Below are positions 4,302-61,730 of a stretch of 64,000 bases of DNA, piece after piece. The DNA comes from Lentisphaerae bacterium GWF2_49_21 (lineage in GTDB: Bacteria > Verrucomicrobiota > Lentisphaeria > Victivallales > GWF2-50-93), in assembly GCA_001804805.1 (NCBI GenBank), contig MHBH01000073.1:94539-158538 (forward strand), given 5' to 3'. Position 1 is the stretch's first letter; each line of letters opens with the position of its first letter. A model generated the notes under the pieces. It ran no database searches. It had not been told where the DNA came from and saw only the letters and a list, made by a program, of their open reading frames with translations. The position numbers and the translations under genes are program-made.

Positions 4302-5699
4302 ATGAAAATATTCCTGATAAATCCCTCCCATGGAGAAGTATACGGCAAGCTTACGCCTCCGGATCACCCCCATCTCGGGCTGGCCTATCTTGGAGCTGTG
4401 CTGGAAGCTGAAAAACACCAAGTCAGGATAATTGATATAGACGCCGAACAGATGTCATTGGATGGGTTAGCTTGCATAATAAAGGATGAGAAACCGGACA
4501 TTGTTGGGATTACTGCTACTACTCCGGTCATATACAGCGCATTAAAGATTGCTGAAATAGTAAAGGTGAATTCCGATTCTAAAACAGTTATCGGGGGAAT
4601 GCATGCAACCTTGATGCCATTGGAATGCGCTGAGAATAAATCTATTGATTTTGTTGTTTTCGGAGAAGGAGAGGATACGATAGTAGAACTTCTGCACTGT
4701 ATCCAGAACAAAGGTGATTATTCGAAAGTCAAAGGGCTTGTCCATAAAAAGGATGATAAACCGGTACAGAATGAACCTCGTGAACCGATACAGGATCTTG
4801 ACAGCATTCCATTCCCTGCAAGATATCTGTTTAAGAATCAGAAGTATACGTATCCTGACGCGTTAAGATTTCCAGCTTTCCCAATTATTACGAGTAGGGG
4901 ATGTCCCGGCAACTGTACTTTCTGCACTGCTAAGTTCATGCATGGCAAAAGGTTCAGAAACAGAAGTGCGAGAAACATATTGGACGAAGTAGAATTTCTC
5001 ATAAAGGAGTATGGTGCCAGAGAGATACACATATGGGACGATAATTTCATAACAAACAGGAAAAGAGTCTTTGAATTCAGGGATGGAATAATCAAGAGGA
5101 AAATTAAGGTTCTATTCTCTTTCCCGAACGGCGTCCGGGCGGATTTTATAAACCGTGAAATATTGCAGGCTCTGAAGGACATGGGCACCTATAGCATCGC
5201 CATAGGTGTTGAATCTGGAAATCAGAGGATACTTGATAGCATTCAAAAGGGCATAAAGCTTGAACAGATTGAAAATGCATTTTCACTGGCAAAGGAATTG
5301 CATCTGGAAACCTGGGGATTCTTCCTTCTTGGTCTTCCGGAGGAGGATCTGAAAACAATTGAGGAAACAATTGAATTCGCCATCAAACTGGATCCTGATA
5401 TCGCCAAATTCCACATACTCAAGCCATATCCCAAAAGTATTGTTTATGAGCAGCTTAAACAGCAAGGGCTTATAATAGATGAGAACTACATCCATTATGG
5501 CATACACACCGGACCGGTTCACCGCCTTCCATCCGTTTCACAGGAACAGCTTCTCAACCTGCAGAAGCGGGCTTATCGAAGATTTTACATGAGGCCGGAG
5601 AAGATCATCAGGGAAATATCAAGGCTGAAATCCTTCAACAGGCTGAAGCTTAACTTTTCCGCTGGAATATCCATCCTCAGGAAAATATTCTTTTCATGA
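4302..5699 (+). CDS. B12-binding domain radical SAM enzyme
   Basis: An N-terminal Rossmann-like B12-binding domain (KIFLINP…LGLAYLGAVL) followed by CPGNCTFC (CxxxCxxC) and a radical SAM core. Confidence 0.75.
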   Translation: MKIFLINPSHGEVYGKLTPPDHPHLGLAYLGAVLEAEKHQVRIIDIDAEQMSLDGLACIIKDEKPDIVGITATTPVIYSALKIAEIVKVNSDSKTVIGGMHATLMPLECAENKSIDFVVFGEGEDTIVELLHCIQNKGDYSKVKGLVHKKDDKPVQNEPREPIQDLDSIPFPARYLFKNQKYTYPDALRFPAFPIITSRGCPGNCTFCTAKFMHGKRFRNRSARNILDEVEFLIKEYGAREIHIWDDNFITNRKRVFEFRDGIIKRKIKVLFSFPNGVRADFINREILQALKDMGTYSIAIGVESGNQRILDSIQKGIKLEQIENAFSLAKELHLETWGFFLLGLPEEDLKTIEETIEFAIKLDPDIAKFHILKPYPKSIVYEQLKQQGLIIDENYIHYGIHTGPVHRLPSVSQEQLLNLQKRAYRRFYMRPEKIIREISRLKSFNRLKLNFSAGISILRKIFFS

Positions 5700-27121: not shown

Positions 27122-27321
27122 GGACGAATCGGAGAAACGGCGTATCGGCGATTTAAAACCATGACACGTAATTTGATAATGGTTTTAAGTTTTAGGTGGT
27201 AAGTTTTAAGTAGGGGATTTTATTCATGGGTTCTTTTAATTCTCTTTGCTGCTTAGAACCTAAAACTTAACACTTAAAACCATGACGACTGACGACTAAC
27301 AACGGACGACTGACGACTATC
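27122..27321 (+). repeat. Structured repeat-rich leader with hairpin, direct and inverted repeats, and (gacgact)2…(gacgact)2
   Basis: Hairpin aaaaccat…atggtttt (27158-27189). aagtttta appears twice, and its inverse cctaaaactt follows. aaaaccatgac appears twice (27158 and 27279). gacgactgacgacta…gacgactgacgacta ends at the start codon. Confidence 0.45.
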
Positions 27322-33465: not shown

Positions 33466-33606
33466 ATGTTTGTAGTAGGCGAATTCATTCGCCGTTCTTC
33501 AAGTAGGTACGTGCTTCAGCATGTACCATCTTTAATTTTAAACATGGGACAGGTTAAAACCCGTCCCTACTTCAAGAACGTGCAATAAATTGCACTACTA
33601 CGAACA
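33466..33606 (+). repeat. Structured repeat element, copy 1 (about 140 bp; TIRs gttTgtagtag / ctactacGaac; four internal hairpins)
   Basis: Shares the core …aagtaggtacgtgcttcagcatgtaccatctt…gggacagg…cccgtccctac…agaacg(t/c)gcaataaattgc(a/g)c…ctactac with 55176-55312 and 60876-60990. Confidence 0.75.
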
Positions 33607-35100
33607 GAGGGATTGAATCTCAATCTTTTCAAACCTGACAACACCATTTTGACAGGCAAGGAAAAGAGAGTTTCCTTTCAGTTCGTGGCAGCGGTTTATG
33701 ATGCACTGCCTGTTGTCAATGCAGATGTCTATGATGTCGTCCTTAAGTATGATCTCCAGCTTGAAGGGACGACCTAGGTCGACTGTAGACAAAATCGTCT
33801 CCTTGCCGAGTGAAATACTGTTCCTGTGGCAGTCGAAATTAAAATCAAACTTACTTTCATAATTGCCCGATCCTCGCAGGCCAAACCCGAAGAAATATGA
33901 ATTTTTCTTCGGTCGGACAACGCAGTTCAAATTATAATTCATCGGAAGATTTTCAAAAGCGGCAACTTCCAGTTTTTCCGCTGCATTTAATTCAACGGAG
34001 GCGATTTCAAAATTGCCGAATTCAAGGTAGGGATGGCTCTCCGAGCCGTCCGTATTGAAGCGGCGGTTTCGGAGAAACCGCCCTACCTTAGGTAATTTTG
34101 AAATCAGCTCAACGGATTTTCCTTTACACTTTGCTCCTGAAGTCAGTCGTCTCAAGGAGGTCTTGACGGCTTTTCCAGAAGGGATCATTTCCTTGAGGAA
34201 TCTTACTCCAAGCGTGCCATCTCTGTTCTGGATGATTTCGCGGAATACAGTCTGCCCTCCCCATAACATCCATTCGGAATCCTTGTTGTCCTTGCGCGGA
34301 CCTATCCAGCCGACGCCGATCCGCCTGTTTTTGCCGAATGGGGCAGTCTTCATGACCGCATTCAGATGGCTGTCAAGGACATCCACCTGCGGACGCTGCC
34401 AGGGGCCGAAAGGCTTTTTCGACATCCTGTAGAATGTCTGAAGTCCGATTCCGAAAAGCAGATAGTACCAGCCCTTCCAGAAAAAATGGTCCGGACATTC
34501 CGGTATGCCTCCCCATCCGGTTCCACCGACGGGAATGAGAAAAATACCTTCAAATTTCCATGTGCTCAGGTCTTTGGATGTATATCTTAAAAGACATCCT
34601 CCCCGATCATGCAGGGGATATTGTTCAATTTTGGACGTGACCAGCATATTGTACCTGCCGGTTTCGTCCTTGAATATAAAGGGATCCCGGCAGTCCTTTG
34701 GGGAAAATCCGGGCAGGGATGAGGCAAATGGATTCGGAGTCAATTTCCTGAACTTTATGCAGTCATCACTGACAGCATGGCTAAGGTGCTGGGTATGATC
34801 CGGCTTCCGTGTGGCATAAAACGCATGGTACTGTCCCTTGTCATAGAAAGTGGAGCCGGTGCAGATCGAGCCTTCCCAGTCCTCTTCCAGTGGAACTGCC
34901 AGGGGATGATGTTTCCAATGGACAAGATCCCTGCTTGAGCAGTGGGCCCACTGATGCCCGCCCAATCCTCCTTTTCCCTGATGATGCCCTTCGTCGAGAA
35001 GATAGAAAAGATGGAAAATTCCGTCGTGGTAAAACGGCATGCAGTCGCCGACGTAATATCCCGGTTTTGGCTGGAAATATTGCATATAGGCCCTTTCCAT
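33598..35100 (-). CDS. Glycoside hydrolase family 32 (beta-fructofuranosidase/levanase-like)
   Basis: N-terminal block YVGDCMPFYHDGIFHLFY (equivalent to the WMNDPNG…YHLFYQ nucleophile block), an RDP motif (CRDPFIF), and an EC motif (GIPECPDHF). Confidence 0.7.
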   Translation of the reverse strand: MERAYMQYFQPKPGYYVGDCMPFYHDGIFHLFYLLDEGHHQGKGGLGGHQWAHCSSRDLVHWKHHPLAVPLEEDWEGSICTGSTFYDKGQYHAFYATRKPDHTQHLSHAVSDDCIKFRKLTPNPFASSLPGFSPKDCRDPFIFKDETGRYNMLVTSKIEQYPLHDRGGCLLRYTSKDLSTWKFEGIFLIPVGGTGWGGIPECPDHFFWKGWYYLLFGIGLQTFYRMSKKPFGPWQRPQVDVLDSHLNAVMKTAPFGKNRRIGVGWIGPRKDNKDSEWMLWGGQTVFREIIQNRDGTLGVRFLKEMIPSGKAVKTSLRRLTSGAKCKGKSVELISKLPKVGRFLRNRRFNTDGSESHPYLEFGNFEIASVELNAAEKLEVAAFENLPMNYNLNCVVRPKKNSYFFGFGLRGSGNYESKFDFNFDCHRNSISLGKETILSTVDLGRPFKLEIILKDDIIDICIDNRQCIINRCHELKGNSLFLACQNGVVRFEKIEIQSLCS

Positions 35101-47458: not shown

Positions 47459-48289
47459 ATGGAAAATTTGAAATTTAAAATCGGAAATCGGCAATCCCAC
47501 TTCGCCCGAGGAGCTTCGAGGGACAGGTCGGCAATTGGCAATGCATTCACCCTTATCGAGCTCCTGGTCGTCATTGCGATCATCGCAATTCTCTGTGCGC
47601 TGCTTCTTCCCGCCCTCGGCCGCGCGAAACTGGTCGCACGAAGCATTGCGTGCTTGAGCAACATCAAACAGCTTGGAGTCTGGGGTCTCTCATATGGTGC
47701 CGACTATGATGGATATCTTCCATATAACGGACAGAAATGGCCATGCTCCTTTGAAGGATACGATGATGGCAGTTCCGGCTGGAGCGATACATCCAAATGC
47801 TCCCTGACGATTTCAGGCAAGACCGACGACACTGTCATGCACTGCCCCCAGACCAGCACGGCAATCGGGAAAACTTTGACCGGCGGCAAAGGCTGCCATT
47901 ATAGTCTGAATGCAAGGCTCGGAGCCGTGGGTTCACCAAACGCGGTGACACACTGGCCATATCCGCACATATCAAAACTGACCGAGAAGAAATTCTGGTT
48001 CGCCGATGGAGCCCTGCGTTACCGCCCAAGTGCAAGTCCGAAGGAGATCGCAATACAGTCGGCTATGATGTTCGACTACTGGGACAGCAACCCCCTCTGG
48101 GACGGCATGAAGCTGCCGTGGATGTGGTACAACGAATACTATAAAGTGACCGGGGCCGGAGGCCCTGTCCCGTTTGTTACACATCCTGGAGGTGCGAATT
48201 TTGTCTTTGGAGACGGACATGCGGAGGCGGTAAGATATTTATCCTATTACAATATGTCGGCTGCTGAAAAAAATGCATTCTATAAGTAA
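47459..48289 (+). CDS. DUF1559 (H-X9-DG) protein with a type IV pilin-like N-terminal helix
   Basis: …[30 protein letters not shown]…, and a C-terminal [13 protein letters not shown] (H-X9-DG). Confidence 0.8.
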
Positions 48290-49155: not shown

Positions 49156-50601
49156 ATGAAGAACATTGTCGCATTTATAATTTCATCTGCGCTGATTTCT
49201 GTCATTTCCGCCGGCATTTCTGCGGAGGAATCGGCTGTGGCCGATCCTGTTCCTGGAGATCCGGTGGCCAAAAATGAAAAACCGCCTGCAGCAGTTCCAA
49301 AAAATCCTGTTGCGAGATTCAGTATTGTTCCCGCAAGCGGACTTGTGGCGACGAAATTCACTCTGGACGCATCGTCAAGCTATGCTGCCGAAGGGGAAAT
49401 TATAAAATATATGTGGGATGTTGGTGGCGATGGGAAGGACTATGCCGAAGGAAAAGGAACCTCCTGTGAGTTTAGACCTGGGAAGGCCGGAACATATGCC
49501 ATCAACCTTAAAGTTGTGGACGCCAATGGTGCCGAGGCCGTCGCCAGCCGGAAAGTAACTGTCGGCGAAAGCGTGACAGTCGGTGGTGGAACCCTTGCAG
49601 CACCTGCTATCGGGCCGGATCCGAGACTCAGCAATGACGGCGGAGGCGACTGGATCCTGGTCGCGAACTATACTTTCGGAGCAGATAAGAAAGGCACGCT
49701 GGACGATCCTACCATCACTGACCGCAAACAGCTTGTTCAGAATATGCACTGCTATAATCCATTTGGATCGCCGGACTGCAGCGGACAATACTGGGCGAAG
49801 ACATGGATTCCGCCGGAAGCCGTGGAGATAGGGGACAATCCATACAAGATGAACGTATATACGCACGAGGCGCCGAATCATGAGATCGTCGACAATGCTG
49901 TACGTTGCTGGGTACGTAGCCTTGACGGAGAGATGAAGCAGGGGCATTTCAGCTACGGATATCTGCGTACCAAGTTCAAATGGCCGAATCCGACCGTCTC
50001 CGGGCAGGACGTATATGCCGAGGTGAAGTTCCGGATGGTGCCCAATCCGAACCATCCTGACGACATGCGCTTCTTCTGGCTGGCGTTCTGGAGCAACGAC
50101 GTTCCCTATACAGGTGAAATGGACTGGTTTGAAGGTTTCGGATATGACAATGGTCCGGGCAACAACAACTTCAAGGCCGCAGGAAATGCAGTATATCATT
50201 CCGACTGGGCAAAAGGCAAAGGCGCCGTCGGTAAGATAAGTTCCAAGACTTGGACCACGCAGACGCCTCCGGGTTCGGATCTGAAACAGTGGACGATCTT
50301 TGGGGGGCTCCTCTGCAGCGACGGATATTGGTCGACTTATGCAAGCAGTCCTGGAAAGCCCGGCGTACAGTTCGTCCCCAACTTCGGAACCTACGGGAAG
50401 GAGACGTTCAAAGACAACTGGCAGTATTATCTTGAAGGGACGCATGGGAACCAGAAGGTGAAGAACTGCATGCCGCCGGGATTGAGCATGGAATCGAACA
50501 TAGATGCGACATGGTTCCCTTATTCGTATGAATGGCAGTACCTGCGCATCTACATGAGGGACAGGAAGGAAAAAATGAAGGGTGGTGGAGACGTCAAATA
50601 G
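49156..50601 (+). CDS. Secreted PKD-domain protein with a C-terminal GH16-like domain
   Basis: Signal peptide. PKD domain (FSIVPASGLVATKFTLDASSSYAAEG…YMWDVGGDG). GEMDWFEGF fits the GH16 E-x-D-x(x)-E catalytic motif. Confidence 0.65.
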   Translation: MKNIVAFIISSALISVISAGISAEESAVADPVPGDPVAKNEKPPAAVPKNPVARFSIVPASGLVATKFTLDASSSYAAEGEIIKYMWDVGGDGKDYAEGKGTSCEFRPGKAGTYAINLKVVDANGAEAVASRKVTVGESVTVGGGTLAAPAIGPDPRLSNDGGGDWILVANYTFGADKKGTLDDPTITDRKQLVQNMHCYNPFGSPDCSGQYWAKTWIPPEAVEIGDNPYKMNVYTHEAPNHEIVDNAVRCWVRSLDGEMKQGHFSYGYLRTKFKWPNPTVSGQDVYAEVKFRMVPNPNHPDDMRFFWLAFWSNDVPYTGEMDWFEGFGYDNGPGNNNFKAAGNAVYHSDWAKGKGAVGKISSKTWTTQTPPGSDLKQWTIFGGLLCSDGYWSTYASSPGKPGVQFVPNFGTYGKETFKDNWQYYLEGTHGNQKVKNCMPPGLSMESNIDATWFPYSYEWQYLRIYMRDRKEKMKGGGDVK

Positions 50602-50609
50602 GGATTATT

Positions 50610-52898
50610 ATGGAAATAAAAAGAGGGAAAAAGAAAGAAAAAATGAAAAAGAGAGGAACGAAGAAACCGGTTCTGAGCCCGATGGTGGCGCAGGCGGTGG
50701 AGTTCACGGAGACTTACAAGAAGCACATTGACGATCACATCGCGATCCGCGAGGCGGTGTGTTTGAAGACGCAGTATCCTGCGATCCTAAGGGATCTGCG
50801 TCCTGAAGATACTCTTGCCGGTCGTAGGCCGGAAGACATCATCGTCTATTTCGGGACGATATGGTGGCATTGGTACCCTGAATGGCGCAAAGGGATTGAG
50901 TCTGCTGGAAAACAGGGCGGATACTGCGTCAATTTTTCGGCAGCCAAGACCTGCGCGAAGAACGATGCTGAGAGGAAAGTCCTCGAGAAAGTTCTTGATT
51001 TTTGGGAGGAGGAATGCACACAATCTAAGATAAGGAAAATCTGGGACGACGAAGTGAAGAATAGCTTCCTTGGAGGAGCAAGTACAGGATTCTGCATGTC
51101 CATGGATTTCAACCGTCTTCTCAAGCGAGGAGTTCCCGGATTAATCGATGACATAAAGGCAAGAAAAAAGAAGATCAAGAAAATGGGAGGAGATGGAAAA
51201 TTCCTCGACGGGCTCCTCATAATGCTCGATGTCTTCAAGGACACCTGCCACCATTACCGGAAACAGGCCGAAGCATTAGCAGAAAATGCGAAATCCGCAA
51301 AGGACAGGAAGAGGCTTGAGGAGACCGCCAGGATTCTTGAAGCGATAACCATAAGAGCTCCGCAATCTTTCCGCGAAGCTGTCCAACTGCTCTGGCTCTA
51401 TCTCATAATGGGAAGCGGAAAGCATATCGAGCCCGGAAGATTAGACATATTCCTTGGTGATTTTTATGCAAACGACATAGAGAAGGGAGTGATTACCGAG
51501 GAAGAGGCGATGGAAACCATACTCGCGCTTTGGAATGTGATCGATGAGAACGGAGAACCTGCGGTGAGCCGCGTGGTCCTCGGCGGAAAAGGCAGGAGGA
51601 ACGAAAAGAACGCCGACAGGTTCGCAATGGCCGGACTTGAAGCGACAAGGCGATTTAAAAAAGTCAAGCCCCAGCTCACCTTCAGATTCTATGAGGGACA
51701 GGATCCGAAGCTGTTTACCAAGGCTTTGGACGTTGTCGGGGAAAACGGTGTCTTCCCGATGTTCTACAACGACGACACCAACGTTACCGGTGCATCGAAA
51801 AGCCTTGGGGTTTCCCTGGAAGAGGCTGTGCGCTACCATCCGCTCGGATGTGGGGAATACATGCTTGCCTGGTGCAGTCCGAGCCTGCTTGACAGCGCGT
51901 GGAGCGTTCCAAAATCGTTCCTTGCTGCGCTTCACGATGGATTCTACTGTGAAAGACGGAATATTGGTCCGCGCACAGGAACAGTTGAGAAATTTGATTC
52001 TTTCAACAAGCTTTATGAAGCCTACAAGAAACAGATAGATTATGCGATGGACATCTCCGCGCGTATCTACAAGGGGATATGCGATGGACATCCAAAACAG
52101 AACGCTTTCCTCTTCGCGAGTCTCCTGAGCGACGACTGCCTTGAACGCGGCAGGGCCATGTTCGACGGAGGCATCCGGTATCTGGGAGGATGCGAGATGG
52201 GGCATGGATACACTAATTCGTCAGATTCACTTACTGCCATTAAAAAAATCGTATATCAGGAAAAGAAGATTTCCATTTCTGAACTCGTAAAGATCCTCGA
52301 TAATAATTTTAAAGGGCGGGAAGATGTCAGGAAGATGCTCCTTGAGGCTCCGAAGTTCGGCAATGATGACAAGGATGCCGACGGAATGATGACTGACATG
52401 TGGAAATACATCCACAAATCTGCGAAACTCGCAGGAAAAAAAGAGGGTCTTGACTTCCTCGTTGTCAGCAGCGTAAATCCAGGCGGATATGGGATGGGCA
52501 AGGACTGTGGAGCAACTGCCGACGGGCGCAAAAAAGGTGAACCGTTTGCAATAGGAATGGCTCCGACGGCCGGATTCGACAAGAGAGGACTGACGGCGAT
52601 GTTCAATTCCATATCGAAAGTGGATCCTGCACACGGCGGGGCTACTACGAACATCAAGCTGTCTCGGGAATTCTTCACCAATGAACGAGCCAAAATGGAA
52701 ATGCTCTTCAAGGTCTATTTCAAGAAGGGTGGAATGCAGGCGAATGTAACCGTTGTCAACAAGAATGATCTCCAGGCCGCGCTGAAGGAACCGGAGAAGT
52801 ATTCGCATGTGATGGTCCGCCTCGGCGGATGGTCGGCACGATTCATCGATCTGGAGCCGATGATACAGGAGGAGATCTTAAGAAGGACGCTGTATTGA
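50610..52898 (+). CDS. Glycyl radical enzyme (PFL2/dehydratase-like clade) with an atypical radical-site motif
   Basis: C-terminus VMVRLGGWSARFIDLEPMIQEEILRRTLY matches RVSGYSAxFxxL…E(I/V)IxR, but with G-W instead of G-Y. Active-site loop YHPLGCGEY. Mid-protein GRLD…FY..D…G.IT.EEA.E motifs are typical of glycyl radical enzymes. I chose the ATG at 50610; the track ORF's 5' extension overlaps the upstream gene. Confidence 0.75.
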   Translation: MEIKRGKKKEKMKKRGTKKPVLSPMVAQAVEFTETYKKHIDDHIAIREAVCLKTQYPAILRDLRPEDTLAGRRPEDIIVYFGTIWWHWYPEWRKGIESAGKQGGYCVNFSAAKTCAKNDAERKVLEKVLDFWEEECTQSKIRKIWDDEVKNSFLGGASTGFCMSMDFNRLLKRGVPGLIDDIKARKKKIKKMGGDGKFLDGLLIMLDVFKDTCHHYRKQAEALAENAKSAKDRKRLEETARILEAITIRAPQSFREAVQLLWLYLIMGSGKHIEPGRLDIFLGDFYANDIEKGVITEEEAMETILALWNVIDENGEPAVSRVVLGGKGRRNEKNADRFAMAGLEATRRFKKVKPQLTFRFYEGQDPKLFTKALDVVGENGVFPMFYNDDTNVTGASKSLGVSLEEAVRYHPLGCGEYMLAWCSPSLLDSAWSVPKSFLAALHDGFYCERRNIGPRTGTVEKFDSFNKLYEAYKKQIDYAMDISARIYKGICDGHPKQNAFLFASLLSDDCLERGRAMFDGGIRYLGGCEMGHGYTNSSDSLTAIKKIVYQEKKISISELVKILDNNFKGREDVRKMLLEAPKFGNDDKDADGMMTDMWKYIHKSAKLAGKKEGLDFLVVSSVNPGGYGMGKDCGATADGRKKGEPFAIGMAPTAGFDKRGLTAMFNSISKVDPAHGGATTNIKLSREFFTNERAKMEMLFKVYFKKGGMQANVTVVNKNDLQAALKEPEKYSHVMVRLGGWSARFIDLEPMIQEEILRRTLY

Positions 52899-52905
52899 GA
52901 ATGTA

Positions 52906-52926
52906 GAACAGGCATCTTGCCTGTTC
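52906..52926 (+). terminator. Hairpin after the glycyl radical enzyme (gaacaggca tct tgcctgttc), first of three related 'caggc' hairpins
   Basis: Perfect 9-bp stem starting 8 nt after the stop. Related hairpins at 53001-53017 and 53072-53090. Confidence 0.4.
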
Positions 52927-53098
52927 ATTGAATTGAATATCCAATATCCAACAAGGAATTTCGAATGTCCAAGTGGAGATATTTTAAACAAGAGAAGACC
53001 ACAGGCGGGACGCCTGTTCCACATTGAAAGAATAAAAGAAAGTGGTACAGCCGTCTCGGCTGTAATTAGATCACAGGCAAGATGCCTGTGTTACATTT

Positions 53099-54007
53099 AT
53101 GGGAAAGCAAGGATTAATATTCGCAATCGAAAGATGCTCCCTGCACGATGGGCCGGGGCTGCGGACGACTGTCTTTTTGAAGGGCTGTCCGCTGCACTGC
53201 CATTGGTGTCACAATCCCGAATCACAGTCGTCATATCCTGAGCTCTATTTTCTCCGCGAGAAGTGCACCCTCTGCGGATCATGCGTCAAAGCGTGTCCGA
53301 ACAAATGCCACAGCCTGAGCGTGAGCAACCACGATATAAACCGTGTCCTATGCGCCAGATGCGGATGCTGTGTTTCAGCGTGTTCAAACTCTGCGCTTGA
53401 GATAAAAGGAAATCCCATGGGAGTTGAGGATGTTCTTGCGGAAGTCGAAAAGGACCATGACTTCTATGTTGAATCCGGAGGAGGCATGACGCTTTCCGGC
53501 GGTGAGCCTATGATGCAGTATGAATTCGCCGCAGAACTTCTTAAGCAGTCGAAGAAGAAAGGATTCCACAACTGCATTGAGACCAGCGGATTTGCACCTA
53601 AGGAAAGATATCTGAAGATCAGGAAGAACGTTGATATTTTCCTCTTTGACTTCAAGGAAAGCGATCCAGAGAGGCATCTGAAATACACCGGGGTGGATAA
53701 CAAGCAGATCCTGGAGAATCTTTTCGAACTGGACAGGAAAGGTTCGAAGATAATCCTGCGCTGTCCGATCATACCGGGATTGAACGACAGGAAATCTCAC
53801 CTTGAAGAAATTGCTAAACTCGCAGGGAAACTCAAGAATATAATCGAGATCAATGTCATGCCGTATCATCCGATGGGAAAATCGAAGAGCGGAAGAATCG
53901 GCAAGAAGCAACCGCATGACAGCGACAGTTTCACGGAGAATGAGAAAGTCGAGAAATGGATCAAGTTCATTGGAAGGAGAACTACTATTCCAGTGAAAAA
54001 GGGATAA
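53099..54007 (+). CDS. Glycyl-radical-enzyme activating protein (radical SAM with ferredoxin-like insert)
   Basis: GCPLHCHWCHNPES (Cx3Cx2C), two extra Cys clusters (CTLCGSCVKACP and CARCGCCVSACS), and GGMTLSGGEP. Confidence 0.85.
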   Translation: MGKQGLIFAIERCSLHDGPGLRTTVFLKGCPLHCHWCHNPESQSSYPELYFLREKCTLCGSCVKACPNKCHSLSVSNHDINRVLCARCGCCVSACSNSALEIKGNPMGVEDVLAEVEKDHDFYVESGGGMTLSGGEPMMQYEFAAELLKQSKKKGFHNCIETSGFAPKERYLKIRKNVDIFLFDFKESDPERHLKYTGVDNKQILENLFELDRKGSKIILRCPIIPGLNDRKSHLEEIAKLAGKLKNIIEINVMPYHPMGKSKSGRIGKKQPHDSDSFTENEKVEKWIKFIGRRTTIPVKKG

Positions 54008-54092
54008 ATAGAGGAGCGCCACCATCTTGGTGGCATAATAATAATTGCCGGCAGGATGCCGGCGCTCCATTTATACAAAAAGGGGAGAAGAT

Positions 54093-55175
54093 ATGAAAAG
54101 CGCGATGATTTTCGGATTATGCCTGGCGGCTTCGGTGTTTGCGGCGGCGGCTGATGCGCCCAAGCCATTCGACCACGGCGATGATGCTGACGTAAATAAA
54201 TTGAAACAGGCAGAGAAAAGCGATGTCGTCAATCCCATGCCTGACAGGCCGCTGGCCAAATGCGAGCTGAAGGACAAGATATACCACGGCGTCCTGATAT
54301 GGACAGATAAGAAGGATGGCTTCACGAAGATATACGACCAATATGTGAAGGTTGCCGGGAAGAAGCCGTCGATGATCGGCACATTCGACTGTATCTGGTC
54401 GAACAGCGTGAAACAGCCGGACGATTCATTTGAACAAAGACTTAAGATCATCGACGAGATTCCGAATGTCATTCCATTCATGAAGGTCTATACGGGCGAC
54501 TGGAAGCCGGGGTGTCCTTTCCTAAGCGCCGATGAGATCCTCGCCGGAAAACACGACCAGTATTTCAAGAACATGGCAGGATACTGCAAAAAATATGCGA
54601 AACCGATGATGGTCAGCTTCAACCATGAGATGAATGGTGATTGGTTCTTCTATTCGGAGCTATACAAGAAGGAGAAGACAGACTGGACTGCCGAGAAATA
54701 TATAAAGATATGGCGCAAGATACATGGAATATTCAAGGATGAAGGGGTGACGAATGTCGCATTCGTATGGTGTCCGCAGATGACTGGCCGTCCCTACAAG
54801 GAACTCAACGCCCAGAACAGTTTCAAGGCGTATTATCCGGGTGACGAATATGTCGACTGGATCGGACCGAGCTTCTACAATGACGTCAACCACATGTACA
54901 TGGACAATCTTGTAAAGACTTATCCGAGCAAGCCAATCGTTCTCGCCGAGTGGGGCACGGAACCCAACCGCGGACAGTGGTATGTGCCAAAGCCTTATCC
55001 GGGTGATGCAAAGCACATGGAAATGACATTGAACCTGTTCCCGAAGAAATATCCGAACATCAAGGCGATGACTTATTTCTACTGGGGGAAGGATGTCAAT
55101 ATCGAGAGGCTTCCGGAGCAGGTCGAGATCTACCAGAAGGGAATTTCAGGGGAGAAATTCCTGAGCAACGAATAA
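54093..55175 (+). CDS. Glycoside hydrolase family 26-like (mannanase/lichenase clade)
   Basis: Signal peptide MKSAMIFGLCLAASVFAAAA after the RBS aaaggggag. FNHEMNGDWFFY matches the GH26 HEMNGxWFWWG block. Confidence 0.6.
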   Translation: MKSAMIFGLCLAASVFAAAADAPKPFDHGDDADVNKLKQAEKSDVVNPMPDRPLAKCELKDKIYHGVLIWTDKKDGFTKIYDQYVKVAGKKPSMIGTFDCIWSNSVKQPDDSFEQRLKIIDEIPNVIPFMKVYTGDWKPGCPFLSADEILAGKHDQYFKNMAGYCKKYAKPMMVSFNHEMNGDWFFYSELYKKEKTDWTAEKYIKIWRKIHGIFKDEGVTNVAFVWCPQMTGRPYKELNAQNSFKAYYPGDEYVDWIGPSFYNDVNHMYMDNLVKTYPSKPIVLAEWGTEPNRGQWYVPKPYPGDAKHMEMTLNLFPKKYPNIKAMTYFYWGKDVNIERLPEQVEIYQKGISGEKFLSNE

Positions 55176-55312
55176 TGTTTGTAGTAGGCGTATTTATACG
55201 CCGTTAAGTAGGTACGTGCTTCAGCATGTACCATCTTAATCAGTAAGAAGGGGACAGGCTAAAGCCCGTCCCTACCTTATAGAACGCGCAATAAATTGCG
55301 CTACTACCAACG
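55176..55312 (+). repeat. Structured repeat element, copy 2; starts 1 nt after the GH26 stop codon
   Basis: TIRs gtttgtagtag / ctactacCaac. Hairpins ggcgtat-tt-atacgcc, ggtacgtgc-ttca-gcatgtacc, gggacaggc-taaa-gcccgtccc and gcgcaat-aa-attgcgc. Confidence 0.75.
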
Positions 55313-56483: not shown

Positions 56484-57212
56484 ATGAAAAACTCGAAACT
56501 TGCAATCCGAAGTTCGAAAGACGGGAGAGGGAAAAGAGGTTATTTTACGCTCATTGAGTTGCTCGTGGTCATCGCCATCATCGCGATTCTGGCGGCATTG
56601 TTGCTTCCGGCGCTGAACAATGCCAAGTTGACGGCAAAAAGCGTAGTGTGTCTGAGCAATCTCAAACAAAATGTTTTAGCTGCCTACTCATATGGTTCCG
56701 AAAATGACATGTATGTGCCAATTATAGGAAAGCTCGCAGGGGGATGGAGAGATTATTCGTATTTGTTGACGCAAGAAAAATATATGGATAATAGCAATGC
56801 CCGAGCTTGTCCTCGCGGCCAACCCTACAAAAGCTGTTATGGCTATGGAACACAAAGTGGAACAGCCAGTTCTGGCCCCAGATTTGAAGCCCCTTATCCG
56901 GCTTTCAACATATCATATGGGGGAGGAGACTATATGAAATTTCGAGCACTAAATCAAATATCTCAGCCAAATAATTATACATATATTTGTGATGTAAGCA
57001 ATTGGGAAGCCAAACAATACTTCGACGTTACACCAACAAACGCCTGGGCTTCTTTGGGGCTGCGTCATTTTCGGAAGGCCAACGCTGCTCTATGGGATGG
57101 TCACGCAGAAGGGCGCACAGGGAAAAACTGGTACAACTCTGGATTCACCTCAGGATTTATTGTCCTCAGCGAGGCCATTGCCTCCAGCAGTGCTGCTCCG
57201 GTTAATTTTTAA
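56484..57212 (+). CDS. DUF1559 (H-X9-DG) protein with a type IV pilin-like N-terminus
   Basis: …[31 protein letters not shown]…, and a C-terminal [13 protein letters not shown]. Confidence 0.8.
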
Positions 57213-58088: not shown

Positions 58089-60878
58089 ATGAAAATCAAA
58101 GTTCTTATGGCAATCTTTGCTGTGGCGCTATTCCTTGTTATGGACGCCGTATCCGCCGCCGACGTTTCCCTGAACGACAATGGCATAGCTGTTACGGTCA
58201 AGGGAATGGGCGGATTCAACCTTGGTTATCCGGTACTTCAGCCTGGTGATTTGAAACCTTTGCAGAAGAAGGTTTCCGGCAAACAGGCAGATGTCACCTA
58301 CGCCAAAGACATAAAAGTCCACCTTGAAGTGGTTGATGGCGGAAAAGTCAACATGAAATTCAGCAATGCCTCTGCGGTCAAGAACTTCAGGCTCGATATC
58401 GGATTTGGTGCGCAGTTAGCGGATGGCGGCACCTGGACCATCGGCAAAGGCCAGCCGCAAACCTTCCCGGTCGAGAAACCGGCGAAACCTCACCTCTATC
58501 AGGGCAACTCGGGAGGCTTTACATTGATCGATGCGGCCGGACACATATTGTCTGTCACAGGTTTTCCCGACTACGCCTATCAGGAACTGACCGATCTTCG
58601 CGAATGGGGCAACAAGGCATACGCTTGGAAAGTGACTGTCCCCTACAATCCAGGATGGGAAGTTCACAGCATAGTAGTCAGCGAGAAACCACATGGCGCC
58701 GCTGCCACTGCTGCTCCAACGACCGTGAAAGTTCAGGTCGACCGCTTTGGACAGACCACACGCAAGGACTTTCCGGGCAAAGTGAAGGACGAGGCTGACC
58801 TGAAGGCTGATGTAGCAAACGAAGCGGCATACTGGGCCAGCTATAAGCCGATACCAGTTGACAAATGGGGAGGACTTCCCGGCAGCAAGGAAAAGCTCGG
58901 ATTGAATTCGACTGGATTCTTCCGGGTTGAAAAGAAGAATGATCGCTGGCTGCTCATCAATCCTGACGGCAACGTCACGTTCCACCTTGGAATCTGCGTT
59001 TTCAGCTATAATCCGGGTGATGAGGCGACATACATCAAGGACCGCCGCGACATCTACGAGTGGCTTCCTCCGCTAGATGGAGAATTCGCCGACGCCTGGC
59101 ACCCAGACAAGTGGTGGCATGATCAGGTTTTCTCATTCTATTCTGCAAACGTCATCCGCAAATATGGCAAGGAGACAACCAAGGACCAGCAGATAGCGCG
59201 TCTGATTGACCGCGTGCGCGCAGTGGGATTTAATGCCATAGGCGCGTTCTCAGGTTCATCCCGGGCATTCGTTGACAAGCATATCCCGCGCATGTCCGGT
59301 GTCGGGTTCAATCCAGAACTGCCCGGCATCCGCGGAGTAGCTGATCCATTTGATGAGGAAACGCGTAAGAAGACAGAGGAAATCTGGGCGGAAAAATTGC
59401 CCAAACAGGCGGACGATCCTCTGATCATCGGATTCTTCTTTGCAAACGAGCAGGGATTCGAGGATATTCCGCGGGCCGTTCCGCAGTTGCCAGGGAAACA
59501 TGCGGCAAAGAAAAAACTTGTCGAAATGCTGCAGAAGAAGTATCCGACCATCGCCGAATTCAACACCGCCTGGAACCTGCAGGTTGCGGATTTCGCAGCT
59601 CTTGCCGACAAGGGACTGCCAGTGTCAACCAAGGCCGCCTACGCCGACATGCAGGAATATACCGAACTGTTCCTCGACACATACTTTAAATTCCTCACCG
59701 AGACTTTCCGCAAATATGACAAGAACCATCTGATGGTGTCCAACCGCTGGCAGCCAGGCACCGCAAACAACGAGGCCCTCTGCCGCATCGCCGGCAAGTA
59801 TATGGACGTCATCAGCATCAACTATTATACCTGGGGTGTAGACAAGAACTTCATCGAGCGACTCTATAAATGGACTGGTGGTAAACCGCAGATGTGGAGT
59901 GAGTTCTACTACACCAGCGGTATCGAGAGCAACGTTGCGGCTGGCGGCTTGGACATGAAGTCGCAGCAGGCTCGTGGTGAGGCTTACCGCCAATACGTCG
60001 AGCAGGCTGCTGCCCTCGGGTTCGTGGTTGGTGTCGAATGGTTCACATTGATTGACCAGGCGGTGACCGGACGCTGGTTCTCAAAGCTTAACGGCGAACG
60101 CGCCAACAGCGGACTATTCAACACCTGCGACCGTCCATACGACACCTGTCTGCGTGAGATGGCGAAGTCGCATGAGGTCTTATACGACGTTCTGTTGAAC
60201 GGGAAGAAACCCTTTACCCTTGAAGACCCTCGCTTTGCAGGTGGTGCAGGCAAGACCCGCAAGCAGGTGCAGGCTGGCAGTGTGCCTGCCGGTAGCATTA
60301 AGATCGACGGAATGGCCGATGGATGGCCGGGCCGCCCCCCGGAGCGTGTCACAAACGATCGTCTGGTCGAGGGCAAGGACGGCAAGGGGCTTGAAGGATC
60401 CTTCAAGGTAGCCTGGGACACTGACAATCTCTATCTGCTAATCAATGTCACCGATCCGACGCCTCTCAATAACACTGCTCAGGGTGATAAACTGTGGAAC
60501 GGCGACGGAGTTGAGCTGTTCATCGGCAGCGAAAAGCTGGACCAGCCCGGAACATTGCTGTTCAGCGATCGTCAGGTGCTGCTTGCAGGCCGGACGGATA
60601 TCAAACCGGGAAGCACTCATATTGTGAACGCCGCAAAACAGCCTGAGATCCGCCTGATCAACGTGCCGTCGGTCGACGGCAGCGGTTATACCATGGAGGC
60701 GGCTATTCCGTGGGCCGCGCTCGATGTGAAGCCAGTCGAAGGGATGGATCTTATCTTTGACATGGCGATAGATGACGCTCCACAAGGTGGCAGCCGTACC
60801 CGCCAGATCATGTGGAATGGCGGCGAAAAGAACAGTAGTGATCGCTCATATTGGGGCCGCCTGAAACTGGTGCGATAA
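58089..60878 (+). CDS. Secreted large glycoside hydrolase-like protein with a C-terminal CBM9/DOMON-like carbohydrate-binding domain
   Basis: Signal peptide. Central TIM-barrel-like region with an NEQ acid/base-like motif (FFANEQGFED) and ISINYYTWG. C-terminal …IKIDGMADGWPG…FKVAWDTDNLYLLINVTD…GDGVELFIG is CBM9-like. Confidence 0.55.
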   Translation: MKIKVLMAIFAVALFLVMDAVSAADVSLNDNGIAVTVKGMGGFNLGYPVLQPGDLKPLQKKVSGKQADVTYAKDIKVHLEVVDGGKVNMKFSNASAVKNFRLDIGFGAQLADGGTWTIGKGQPQTFPVEKPAKPHLYQGNSGGFTLIDAAGHILSVTGFPDYAYQELTDLREWGNKAYAWKVTVPYNPGWEVHSIVVSEKPHGAAATAAPTTVKVQVDRFGQTTRKDFPGKVKDEADLKADVANEAAYWASYKPIPVDKWGGLPGSKEKLGLNSTGFFRVEKKNDRWLLINPDGNVTFHLGICVFSYNPGDEATYIKDRRDIYEWLPPLDGEFADAWHPDKWWHDQVFSFYSANVIRKYGKETTKDQQIARLIDRVRAVGFNAIGAFSGSSRAFVDKHIPRMSGVGFNPELPGIRGVADPFDEETRKKTEEIWAEKLPKQADDPLIIGFFFANEQGFEDIPRAVPQLPGKHAAKKKLVEMLQKKYPTIAEFNTAWNLQVADFAALADKGLPVSTKAAYADMQEYTELFLDTYFKFLTETFRKYDKNHLMVSNRWQPGTANNEALCRIAGKYMDVISINYYTWGVDKNFIERLYKWTGGKPQMWSEFYYTSGIESNVAAGGLDMKSQQARGEAYRQYVEQAAALGFVVGVEWFTLIDQAVTGRWFSKLNGERANSGLFNTCDRPYDTCLREMAKSHEVLYDVLLNGKKPFTLEDPRFAGGAGKTRKQVQAGSVPAGSIKIDGMADGWPGRPPERVTNDRLVEGKDGKGLEGSFKVAWDTDNLYLLINVTDPTPLNNTAQGDKLWNGDGVELFIGSEKLDQPGTLLFSDRQVLLAGRTDIKPGSTHIVNAAKQPEIRLINVPSVDGSGYTMEAAIPWAALDVKPVEGMDLIFDMAIDDAPQGGSRTRQIMWNGGEKNSSDRSYWGRLKLVR

Positions 60879-60990
60879 GTAGGTACGTGCTTCAGCATGT
60901 ACCATCTTAATTTCTAAGAAAGGGACAGGCTTCCGACTTCGCCCAATGGGCTACGCCGGACACAGAAAGCCCGTCCCTACTTTTAGAACG
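60876..60990 (+). repeat. Structured repeat element, copy 3 (5'- and 3'-truncated, with a 36-bp palindromic insertion in the loop of hairpin 3); overlaps the stop codon of the 58089 gene
   Basis: taagtaggtacgtgcttcagcatgtaccatcttaatt…gggacaggc[ttccgacttcgcccaatgggctacgccggacacagaa]agcccgtccctac…agaacg. It lacks the gtttgtagtag and ctactac termini. Confidence 0.65.
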
Positions 60991-61061: not shown

Positions 61062-61730
61062 TTGAAAATTGAAAATAAATTTACCCTTATCGAACTGCTG
61101 ATCGTGATTGCGATCATCGCAATTCTCATCGCCCTTCTGCTGCCTGCCCTTAAGAATGCAAAGCTGTCTGCAAAAAGCGTGGTGTGCCTGAGCAATCTCA
61201 GGCAGAATGCCGTAGCGGCCCTGGCGTATTCCGCGGACAATGATCTGCGGGTTCCGCTTTTCACAATCAGTGGCAGCCATGATTATTCAAGGTTCCTGAC
61301 TGATGGCAAGTACCTTGAAGCAACACCTGCCAGAGGCTGTCCCTGGGCTCCGCCGTATGGCACAAAATACGGACCGGGCAACATATCTACATCTCGCGGC
61401 TATGGTGTCTTTGCTTCAGGTGCCAGTACAGAGAGCTTTGGAACGACCACGGTGTATATCCTTTCATTGTCGAAATTAACAAATCCTGCCAACAAGGTAT
61501 ATATCATTGATTCAAGCACAGGGCAGGGGGCCCAGTATCCCGATCTTGCCTGGGGTTTTCCTTCCTGGGCTGTTGGATTTGTGGGGCTTCGCCATTTCCG
61601 CAAGGCCAATGCGGCGCTCTTTGATGGACGTGCCGAGGGACGCGAAGGAAAAGCCTGGGGGCTTACTGGCGCCTATCTTGTCCTGAAAGATACGATTAGT
61701 TCAAACAGCGCGGTTCAGTTGAATTTCTAA
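61062..61730 (+). CDS. DUF1559 (H-X9-DG) protein with a type IV pilin-like N-terminus; TTG start
   Basis: (TTG) [34 protein letters not shown]…, and a C-terminal [13 protein letters not shown]. Confidence 0.75.

What the first reader, a model, noticed from the sequence alone, without database searches (positions are those of the whole stretch)
33466..33606. New family of ~137-bp structured repeat elements (three copies in 64 kb) with terminal inverted repeats and four internal hairpins
Copies at 33466-33606, 55176-55312 and 60876-60990 share the core …t(c/t)aagtaggtacgtgcttcagcatgtaccatctt(t/a)aat…gggacagg…cccgtccctac…agaacg…. The two complete copies have the same termini, gttTgtagtag … ctactac(G/C)aac, which form an 11-bp TIR with a mismatch at the same position. 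All copies sit in intergenic DNA of CAZyme clusters. Copies 2 and 3 begin at or 1 nt after the stop codons of plus-strand genes, consistent with a 3'-UTR, terminator or stability element, or with insertion-site preference. The family does not resemble any known named element that I can recognise from sequence alone.
Basis: seen in the sequence. Interest (0 to 1): 0.65.

Follow-up and report, generated by a model that had tools for sequence, protein, structure and literature searches.

The report
Nested REP palindromic repeats in Lentisphaerae
The three repeats are real, but they are an undescribed local family of a well-known kind, GTAG-tagged repetitive extragenic palindromes (REPs) arranged as inverted pairs, and transposase genes of the REP-associated type lie in the same genome, so the finding is ordinary.

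Summary
Three copies share an exact 32-nt core, none expected by chance, and fold far better than shuffles on both strands.

The "137-bp element" is not one unit. It is a mosaic of two independent modules:
- **Inner module:** a head-to-head pair of hairpins on opposite strands, each preceded by GTAG.
- **Outer module:** a pair of arms, GTTYGTAGT + small hairpin + GTTCTT.

This is the anatomy of GTAG-tagged REPs (REPIN/BIME-like dimers). At least 155 distinct sites carry the core in several Victivallales/Lentisphaerae genomes. They lie between genes, in both orientations, mostly at gene 3' ends. The TAG of GTAG often serves as a stop codon. There is no consistent target-site duplication. Orthologous empty sites exist.

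The window comes from Lentisphaerae bacterium GWF2_49_21. That genome encodes at least three REP-associated tyrosine transposases (RAYTs). One of them is flanked by units of the outer-arm family. No RAYT flanked by the inner hairpin class was found. There is no Rfam match.

Verdict: a new member of a known kind, of modest interest. RAYT mobilisation and any role in mRNA 3'-end stability are inferred, not shown.

The parts
33468..33499 (+). Copy 1, outer left arm: GTTTGTAGTAG + hairpin GCGAATTCATTCGC + CGTTCTT
   Evidence: Aligns with the REP units that flank the RAYT genes P0151 and R174.
33503..33527 (+). Copy 1, inner REP unit (hp2): GTAG-GTACGTGC TTCA GCATGTACC, with a G.T wobble at stem position 6
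33546..33570 (-). Copy 1, inner REP unit (hp3), read on the minus strand: GTAG-GGACGGGT TTTA ACCTGTCCC. Forms a head-to-head dimer with hp2.
33574..33605 (-). Copy 1, outer right arm (minus-strand sense GTTCGTAGTAG + hairpin + GTTCTT). Its first TAG (33598-33600) is the stop codon of the GH32 gene 33598-35100 (-).
55177..55205 (+). Copy 2, outer left arm. Starts 1 nt after the TAA stop of the GH26-like gene 54045-55175.
55206..55277 (.). Copy 2, inner head-to-head REP dimer: hp2 at 55208-55232 (+) and hp3 at 55251-55275 (-), joined by the linker ATCTTAAT..AAGAAG
55280..55311 (-). Copy 2, outer right arm: AGAAC + hairpin GCGCAATAAATTGCGC + TACTACCAAC
60877..60982 (.). Copy 3, inner dimer only. 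hp2 is at 60879-60903 (+). hp3 is at 60922-60980 (-) and carries a recurrent ~37-nt loop insertion (TTCCGACTTCGCCCAATGGGCTACGCCGGACACAGAA). The AAGTAG tag overlaps TAA 60876-60878 of the CBM9 gene.
   Evidence: The same loop insertion occurs in L056 and L067, with variants in L031, L016 and L035.
33998..34111 (.). Another REP composite of a different class (AAGGTAGG-GATGGCTC.. / ..GGCGGTTTC-CCTACCTT, inside a 23-nt inverted repeat). It lies in frame inside the GH32 ORF.
   Evidence: A 94% identical copy is intergenic in L148, and about 15 related copies exist.
52900..53097 (.). REP cluster of a third class (GTAG-AACAGGCA ... GTAA-CACAGGCA). This class flanks RAYT R156 in the same genome.

Best explanation
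**What it is.** The elements are composites of GTAG-tagged repetitive extragenic palindromes (REPs).
- The basic unit is about 25 nt: GTAG followed by a 9-bp stem with a fixed G.T irregularity, GG-N-AC-G-NN-C / G-NN-T-GT-N-CC.
- Two such units on opposite strands, with their GTAG tags facing outward, form a head-to-head dimer of about 72 nt (REPIN/BIME-like).
- In some copies this dimer sits in the centre of a second head-to-head pair from a different REP family: GTTYGTAGT + small covarying hairpin + GTTCTT.

**How it most likely works (inferred, not shown).**
- Single-stranded hairpins with their GTAG tag are bound and cut strand-specifically by REP-associated tyrosine (HUH/Y1) transposases. 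This would spread and maintain the repeats without target-site duplication.
- Copies persist mainly just past gene ends, where the tag's TAG can replace a stop codon.
- When transcribed, the paired hairpins probably act as 3'-end or intercistronic mRNA stabilisers, or as weak two-way terminators.
For: **Anatomy**
- Every hairpin is preceded by GTAG on its own strand.
- 58 partner units show at least 6 stem variants that all pair fully apart from the G.T wobble. 55 of the 58 keep that wobble on the tag strand.
- Outer-arm hairpins: 64 of 69 units found by flanking anchors alone are fully paired, in 22 distinct variants, against 1.7% of shuffles.
- The modules occur separately and in mixed combinations.

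**Abundance and spread**
- These give 155 unique sites in at least 5 Victivallales/Lentisphaerae genomes.

**Genomic context**
- Flanking gene arrangements: convergent 27, tandem 26 + 19, divergent 7.
- 60 of 261 units end an open frame of at least 100 codons at the tag, 45 of them with the TAG of GTAG. Random positions give 1 of 261.
- No consistent target-site duplication: 3 of 24 full composites have a flanking direct repeat of 6 nt or more, against 9% in controls.
- Filled versus empty orthologous sites exist, including AAGTAG|element versus AAGTAA.

**Transposases**
- The window's genome is Lentisphaerae GWF2_49_21. It encodes R156, R158 and P0151.
- R156, R158 and R174 (the GWF2_50_93 relative of P0151) match NCBIfam REP_Tyr_transpos at E 1e-18 to 1e-21, and the HUH and Y..NP motifs are conserved.
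- Each gene is flanked by GTAG/GTAA hairpins.
- P0151, R174 and three R174 orthologues at a syntenic pgi locus are flanked on both sides by outer-arm-family units.

**Literature**
- GTAG-tagged REPs, head-to-head dimers, TAG stop donation and nesting in palindromes: PMC3733652.
- Strand-specific single-strand REP recognition, the need for GTAG and for stem irregularities: PMC8266576.
Against: - No RAYT flanked by the inner GGNACGNNC hairpin class was found in 1.7 Mb of repeat-adjacent DNA, or next to 10 sampled RAYT homologues.
- RAYT scores of 66-77 bits fall just under NCBIfam's 80-bit cutoff. R174 has no Pfam hit in my scan, and neither R174 nor P0151 has a precomputed one.
- Both full copies in the window are flanked by direct repeats (9 nt AGAGGGATT and 7 nt GAATAAT). 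HUH transposition is not expected to leave these.
- One dimer has kept its place between araB and araD in four species. That shows long stasis rather than activity.
- There are no transcription or biochemical data.
Confidence: 0.85

Rival explanations
1. A family of cis-acting structured RNAs (3'-UTR stability, terminator or regulatory element) selected at the RNA level, not a DNA-level repeat.
For: - Very stable folds and compensatory changes.
- Bias towards gene 3' ends.
- Each hairpin is followed by a T-rich linker that scores as a weak terminator.
- A dimer is conserved between araB and araD in four species, with conserved hairpins and a diverged linker.
Against: - Both orientations occur in tandem gene contexts (26 vs 19).
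- In any one transcript, one hairpin of a pair would carry G.U and the other an A.C mismatch.
- Modules recombine freely.
- One copy lies inside an ORF.
- No Rfam family matches.
- RAYT genes are flanked by the same kinds of units.
- An RNA role is compatible with REPs as a secondary function. It does not explain the family's origin.
Confidence: 0.1
2. A miniature inverted-repeat transposable element (MITE) derived from a DDE-type insertion sequence, moved through its 11-nt terminal inverted repeats.
For: - Terminal inverted repeats in the full copies.
- Both window full copies have flanking direct repeats of 9 and 7 nt.
- Presence or absence at orthologous sites.
Against: - Across 24 full composites, flanking direct repeats are no more common than in controls.
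- Most copies lack the terminal arms.
- The left and right arms can be of different subtypes.
- The arms are themselves GTAG hairpin units, and these flank RAYT genes.
- No DDE transposase with these ends turned up in the fetched loci, but none was specifically searched for.
Confidence: 0.04

Closest known systems
GTAG-tagged REPs and their head-to-head dimers (Di Nocera et al. 2013, PMC3733652); REPINs of Pseudomonas; E. coli BIMEs
   Same: - GTAG tag followed by an imperfect palindrome of about 20-30 nt with G.T pairs.
- Hundreds of copies.
- Inverted heterodimers with a semi-conserved spacer.
- Bias towards tandem and convergent intergenic regions.
- The TAG of the tag donated as a stop codon.
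- Several coexisting families per genome.
- Dimers nested in longer palindromes.
- Intragenic copies in a PVC-superphylum genome (Opitutus terrae).
   Different: - The stem sequences (GGNACGNNC and the outer GTTYGTAGT-hairpin-GTTCTT unit) were found here by sequence scan. I did not compare them with the 24 published families.
- The host phylum (Lentisphaerota/Victivallales) is absent from the main texts I checked.
- One REP dimer regularly nests inside another REP-family dimer.
- No cognate RAYT was found for the inner class.
REPtrons: RAYT / TnpAREP genes flanked by their REPs (Nunvar 2010, PMC2817692; Ton-Hoang 2012, PMC3333891; Corneloup 2021, PMC8266576)
   Same: - P0151, R174 and its orthologues are single genes of about 195 aa with HUH and catalytic-Tyr motifs.
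- They are flanked on both sides by inverted GTAG hairpin units.
- R174 and its three orthologues sit at a syntenic chromosomal locus (pgi).
   Different: - The R174 clade is divergent: it has no Pfam Y1_Tnp hit and scores 66 bits against the 80-bit NCBIfam cutoff.
- Activity is untested.
IS200/IS605 ends and the palindrome-associated elements derived from them
   Same: Subterminal hairpins recognised as single-stranded DNA by a Y1 HUH enzyme, with no target duplication.
   Different: Those elements carry both hairpins on the same strand and lack a GTAG tag. Here the units are inverted and tagged.

Membership tests
GTAG-tagged REP / REPIN-BIME type repeats | Short (20-40 nt) imperfect palindrome able to form a stem-loop | tested here: met
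   9-bp stems with 4-nt loops. Fold z-scores are -6 to -11. Stem variants are compensatory.
GTAG-tagged REP / REPIN-BIME type repeats | Conserved GTAG tetranucleotide at one end of each unit | tested here: met
   AAGTAG precedes hp2, and precedes hp3 on the opposite strand. GTAGT precedes the outer hairpins.
GTAG-tagged REP / REPIN-BIME type repeats | High copy number, dispersed, mainly between genes | tested here: met
   155 unique core sites. At least 75 are in GWF2_50_93 and about 28 in the window's genome GWF2_49_21 (23 in its IMG loci only, 2 shared, 3 in the window). 9 of 101 overlap a crude ORF call.
GTAG-tagged REP / REPIN-BIME type repeats | Units paired in inverted orientation (head-to-head or tail-to-tail dimers) | tested here: met
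   58 of 101 hp2 units have an inverted partner 15-30 nt away, with the tags facing outward.
GTAG-tagged REP / REPIN-BIME type repeats | Preference for gene 3' ends (tandem or convergent rather than divergent spacers) | tested here: met
   Convergent 27, tandem 45, divergent 7. 60 of 261 units touch a stop codon, against 1 of 261 random positions.
GTAG-tagged REP / REPIN-BIME type repeats | A RAYT gene in the genome flanked by the same REP class (REPtron) | tested here: inconclusive
   Outer-arm family: met. P0151, in the window's own genome, and R174 with three orthologues are flanked by such units. Inner GGNACGNNC class: none found in 1.7 Mb or next to 10 sampled RAYTs. Whole genomes could not be scanned.
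GTAG-tagged REP / REPIN-BIME type repeats | Strand-specific binding and cleavage of the single-stranded unit by its RAYT | not testable with these tools
   Needs biochemistry. The only indirect sign is the G.T irregularity kept on the tag strand.
MITE from a DDE insertion sequence | Target-site duplication of fixed length at most copies | tested here: not met
   3 of 24 full composites have a flanking direct repeat of 6 nt or more, against 9% in controls.
Curated RNA families (Rfam 15) | Match at the family's gathering score | tested here: not met
   No match in the window or in 12 related loci, apart from one tRNA. Sub-threshold hits are chance matches to microRNA hairpin models.
Intrinsic terminator | GC-rich hairpin immediately followed by a U tract | tested here: inconclusive
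   The loose consensus scan flags hp2 (+) and hp3 (-) because of the T-rich linker. There is no uninterrupted T run. One dimer lies inside the araB-araD operon.

The most novel reading that the evidence does not exclude
The inner hairpin class has no transposase of its own. It spreads by riding inside the outer-arm dimer, so the nested "REP within REP" composite is the mobile unit. The enzyme would be a divergent RAYT clade (R174/P0151), widespread in the PVC superphylum, fixed at the pgi locus in Victivallales and largely invisible to Pfam. Separately, dimers conserved at operon junctions such as araB-araD may have been co-opted as intercistronic RNA elements.
Probability: 0.15. Interest if true: 0.5.

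Novelty: new member of a known kind. Interest (0 to 1): 0.3.

Why it matters
It extends REP/RAYT systems to Lentisphaerota. The REP surveys I could search do not mention this phylum in their main texts. The genome carries several REP classes and several RAYT genes side by side, with one class regularly nested in another. That makes it a convenient natural case for asking how RAYT specificity maps onto hairpin sequence. For annotation, knowing these repeats explains three things in these metagenome-assembled genomes: many "conserved intergenic structures", stop codons supplied by repeats, and odd in-frame insertions in genes. It does not reveal a new mechanism.

Tried and rejected
- **Rfam:** the gathering-threshold scan of the window and 12 loci gave nothing, and the permissive scan of copy 1 gave only chance microRNA-hairpin hits.
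- **First RAYT search:** The same search succeeded only after the metagenome loci were added.
- **RAYT for the inner hairpin class:**
  - A RAYT profile HMM was run against the six-frame translation of 1.7 Mb.
  - ORFs flanked by units on both sides were listed; none looked RAYT-like, though they were not scanned against Pfam.
  - The flanks of 10 RAYT homologues were read.
  - All of these RAYTs carry other REP classes. One further look-up returned no DNA.
- **Target-site duplications:** not supported across the family.
- **Orthologous empty sites for the three window copies:** none of the fetched loci overlaps the window.
- **Full-composite alignment:** the MAFFT alignment of 19 full composites was too heterogeneous in the arms for a formal pair count. 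I used anchored per-module counts instead.
- **GH32 insertion:** comparison with solved structures did not align across the suspected insertion.

Full report
**Observation.** The three copies are present as described.
- The 32-nt core AAGTAGGTACGTGCTTCAGCATGTACCATCTT occurs exactly three times, with no match in 100 shuffles.
- A profile of 46 related sequences finds no further copy in the window.
The first and fourth hairpins differ between them by compensatory changes.
- Copy 3 (60877-60982) is only the central part, with an insertion in a hairpin loop.
- All three fold far better than shuffles, and equally well on either strand.

**Anatomy.** The element has a two-fold pseudo-symmetry. The left half resembles the reverse complement of the right half.
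- Each inner hairpin, read on its own strand, is GTAG followed by a 9-bp stem GG-N-AC-G-NN-C / G-NN-T-GT-N-CC, with a G.T wobble at the sixth pair.
- I collected 58 partner hairpins using anchors that leave the variable positions free. At least six stem variants occur. All are fully compensatory. 55 of the 58 keep the wobble on the strand that carries the tag.
- Within a pair the wobbles therefore lie on opposite strands. Any single transcript would carry one G.U and one A.C.
- The outer arms are also tagged hairpin units: GTTYGTAGT, 2-3 nt, a 4-6 bp hairpin, then GTTCTT. Of 69 such units found by their flanking motifs alone, 64 are fully paired, in 22 distinct variants, against 1.7% of shuffles.

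**Distribution.**
- A pattern scan for the first inner hairpin found 86 stretches in species-representative genomes and 116 in JGI metagenomes.
- After removing identical assemblies there are 155 distinct sites. At least 75 are in Lentisphaerae bacterium GWF2_50_93. About 28 are in GWF2_49_21 (23 in its IMG loci only, 2 shared with another assembly, 3 in the window). The rest are in three further Victivallales genomes and several metagenomes.
- The window itself is from GWF2_49_21.
- The 137-bp form is a minority. Of 101 core hairpins, 58 sit in head-to-head dimers. Of those, 34 have no outer arms, 16 have one arm and 8 have both. Left and right arms can be of different subtypes.
- Other tagged hairpin classes coexist in these genomes, including in the window at 33998-34111 and 52900-53097.

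**Context.**
- Relative to the hairpin's strand, the flanking genes are convergent in 27 cases, tandem in 26 + 19 and divergent in 7. So there is a 3'-end bias and no strand preference.
- Of 261 unique units, 60 terminate a same-strand open frame of at least 100 codons at the tag, 45 of them with the TAG of GTAG. Random positions give 1 of 261.
- All three window copies touch a stop codon.
- There is no regular target-site duplication, although both full window copies happen to have flanking direct repeats.
- Orthologous comparisons show a full composite present in one species and absent in another. They also show an inner dimer inserted where the empty site reads AAGTAA at the stop codon, and one decayed half-hairpin.
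- One dimer has sat between araB and araD in four species, with conserved hairpins and a diverged linker.

**Transposases.**
- Among the metagenome loci, three genes carry HUH and Y..NP motifs. They match NCBIfam REP_Tyr_transpos at E 1e-18 to 1e-21, or 66-77 bits against a cutoff of 80. Two also match Pfam Y1_Tnp.
- A profile search returns 5,889 relatives, many named RayT by their sources.
- Each gene is flanked by inverted GTAG or GTAA hairpins of its own class.
- R174, in GWF2_50_93, is flanked by outer-arm-family units.
- So are three R174 orthologues at a syntenic pgi locus in other Victivallales.
- So is the paralogue P0151 (A2X48_16585), which is encoded in the window's own genome and in the same assembly as the window.
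- No RAYT flanked by the inner hairpin class was found.

**Interpretation.** Every sequence-level defining feature of GTAG-tagged REPs is met, and so are the dimer organisation, the genomic bias and the stop-codon donation described by Di Nocera et al. (PMC3733652).
- The strand-tied stem irregularity fits what is known of RAYT recognition: strand-specific binding of single-stranded REPs, an essential GTAG, and irregular stems required in group 2 (PMC8266576).
- The sequence data show the repeat anatomy, abundance, context, lack of duplications, presence/absence polymorphism and REPtrons for the outer-arm family.
- Three things are inferred: that RAYTs actually move these units, which enzyme serves the inner class, and any RNA-level role. 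The weak terminator-like signal and the operon-internal copy point to stabilisation rather than strong termination.

**Novelty.** No Rfam family matches. The REP papers I could search do not mention Lentisphaerae in their main texts. This is a new member of a known kind.

Noticed in passing
window 33998-34111: A 114-nt REP composite of another class lies in frame (38 codons) inside the GH32 ORF 33598-35100 (-). It is a head-to-head dimer AAGGTAGG..CCTACCTT inside a 23-nt inverted repeat. A 94% identical copy is intergenic in GWF2_50_93 (L148 483-596), and about 15 related copies exist.
   Followed up: partly
window 52900-53097: Cluster of GTAG/GTAA-(A/C)ACAGGCA hairpins fills the spacer between genes 50532-52898 and 53099-54007. 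The same class flanks the RAYT gene R156 (A2X48_24050) in this genome and its orthologue in another Victivallales genome.
   Followed up: partly
window 27179-27283: An imperfect palindrome with 35-nt arms just after dnaE contains AAGTAGG at its centre. Only short pieces recur in other loci.
   Followed up: partly
L056 684-772: Three tandem copies of the first inner hairpin at a 32-nt period, followed by a normal partner hairpin. This is a head-to-tail array, rare in this family.
   Followed up: no
L002 ~4958-5250; also L010, L022, L042, L075, L080: A second repeat family of 250-500 bp has ends CTGTCTACTATACGCAT...ATGCGTATAGTAGACAG, each abutting a tagged hairpin. No Rfam match and no obvious ORF.
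   Followed up: partly
L032 1979-2070 and orthologues in L013, L039, L086: An inner dimer sits between araB (ribulokinase-like) and araD (epimerase-like, both judged from the ORF translations only) in four species. It supplies araB's TAG stop and ends about 15-25 nt before araD's start codon.
   Followed up: yes
L174 7796-8368; L210-L212: The R174-type RAYT occupies the same place, between pgi and a radical-SAM gene, in four Victivallales genomes. This suggests a vertically inherited, domesticated gene. Neither my Pfam scan of R174 nor the precomputed Pfam hits for most of its homologues detect the clade.
   Followed up: partly
window 47546-47709, 56544-56707, 61080-61243: Three diverged copies (64-70% identity) of a 164-nt stretch lie at the 5' ends of three ORFs. 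The one I read encodes a prepilin-type N-terminal motif ([16 protein letters not shown]), so these look like paralogous genes rather than a non-coding repeat.
   Followed up: no
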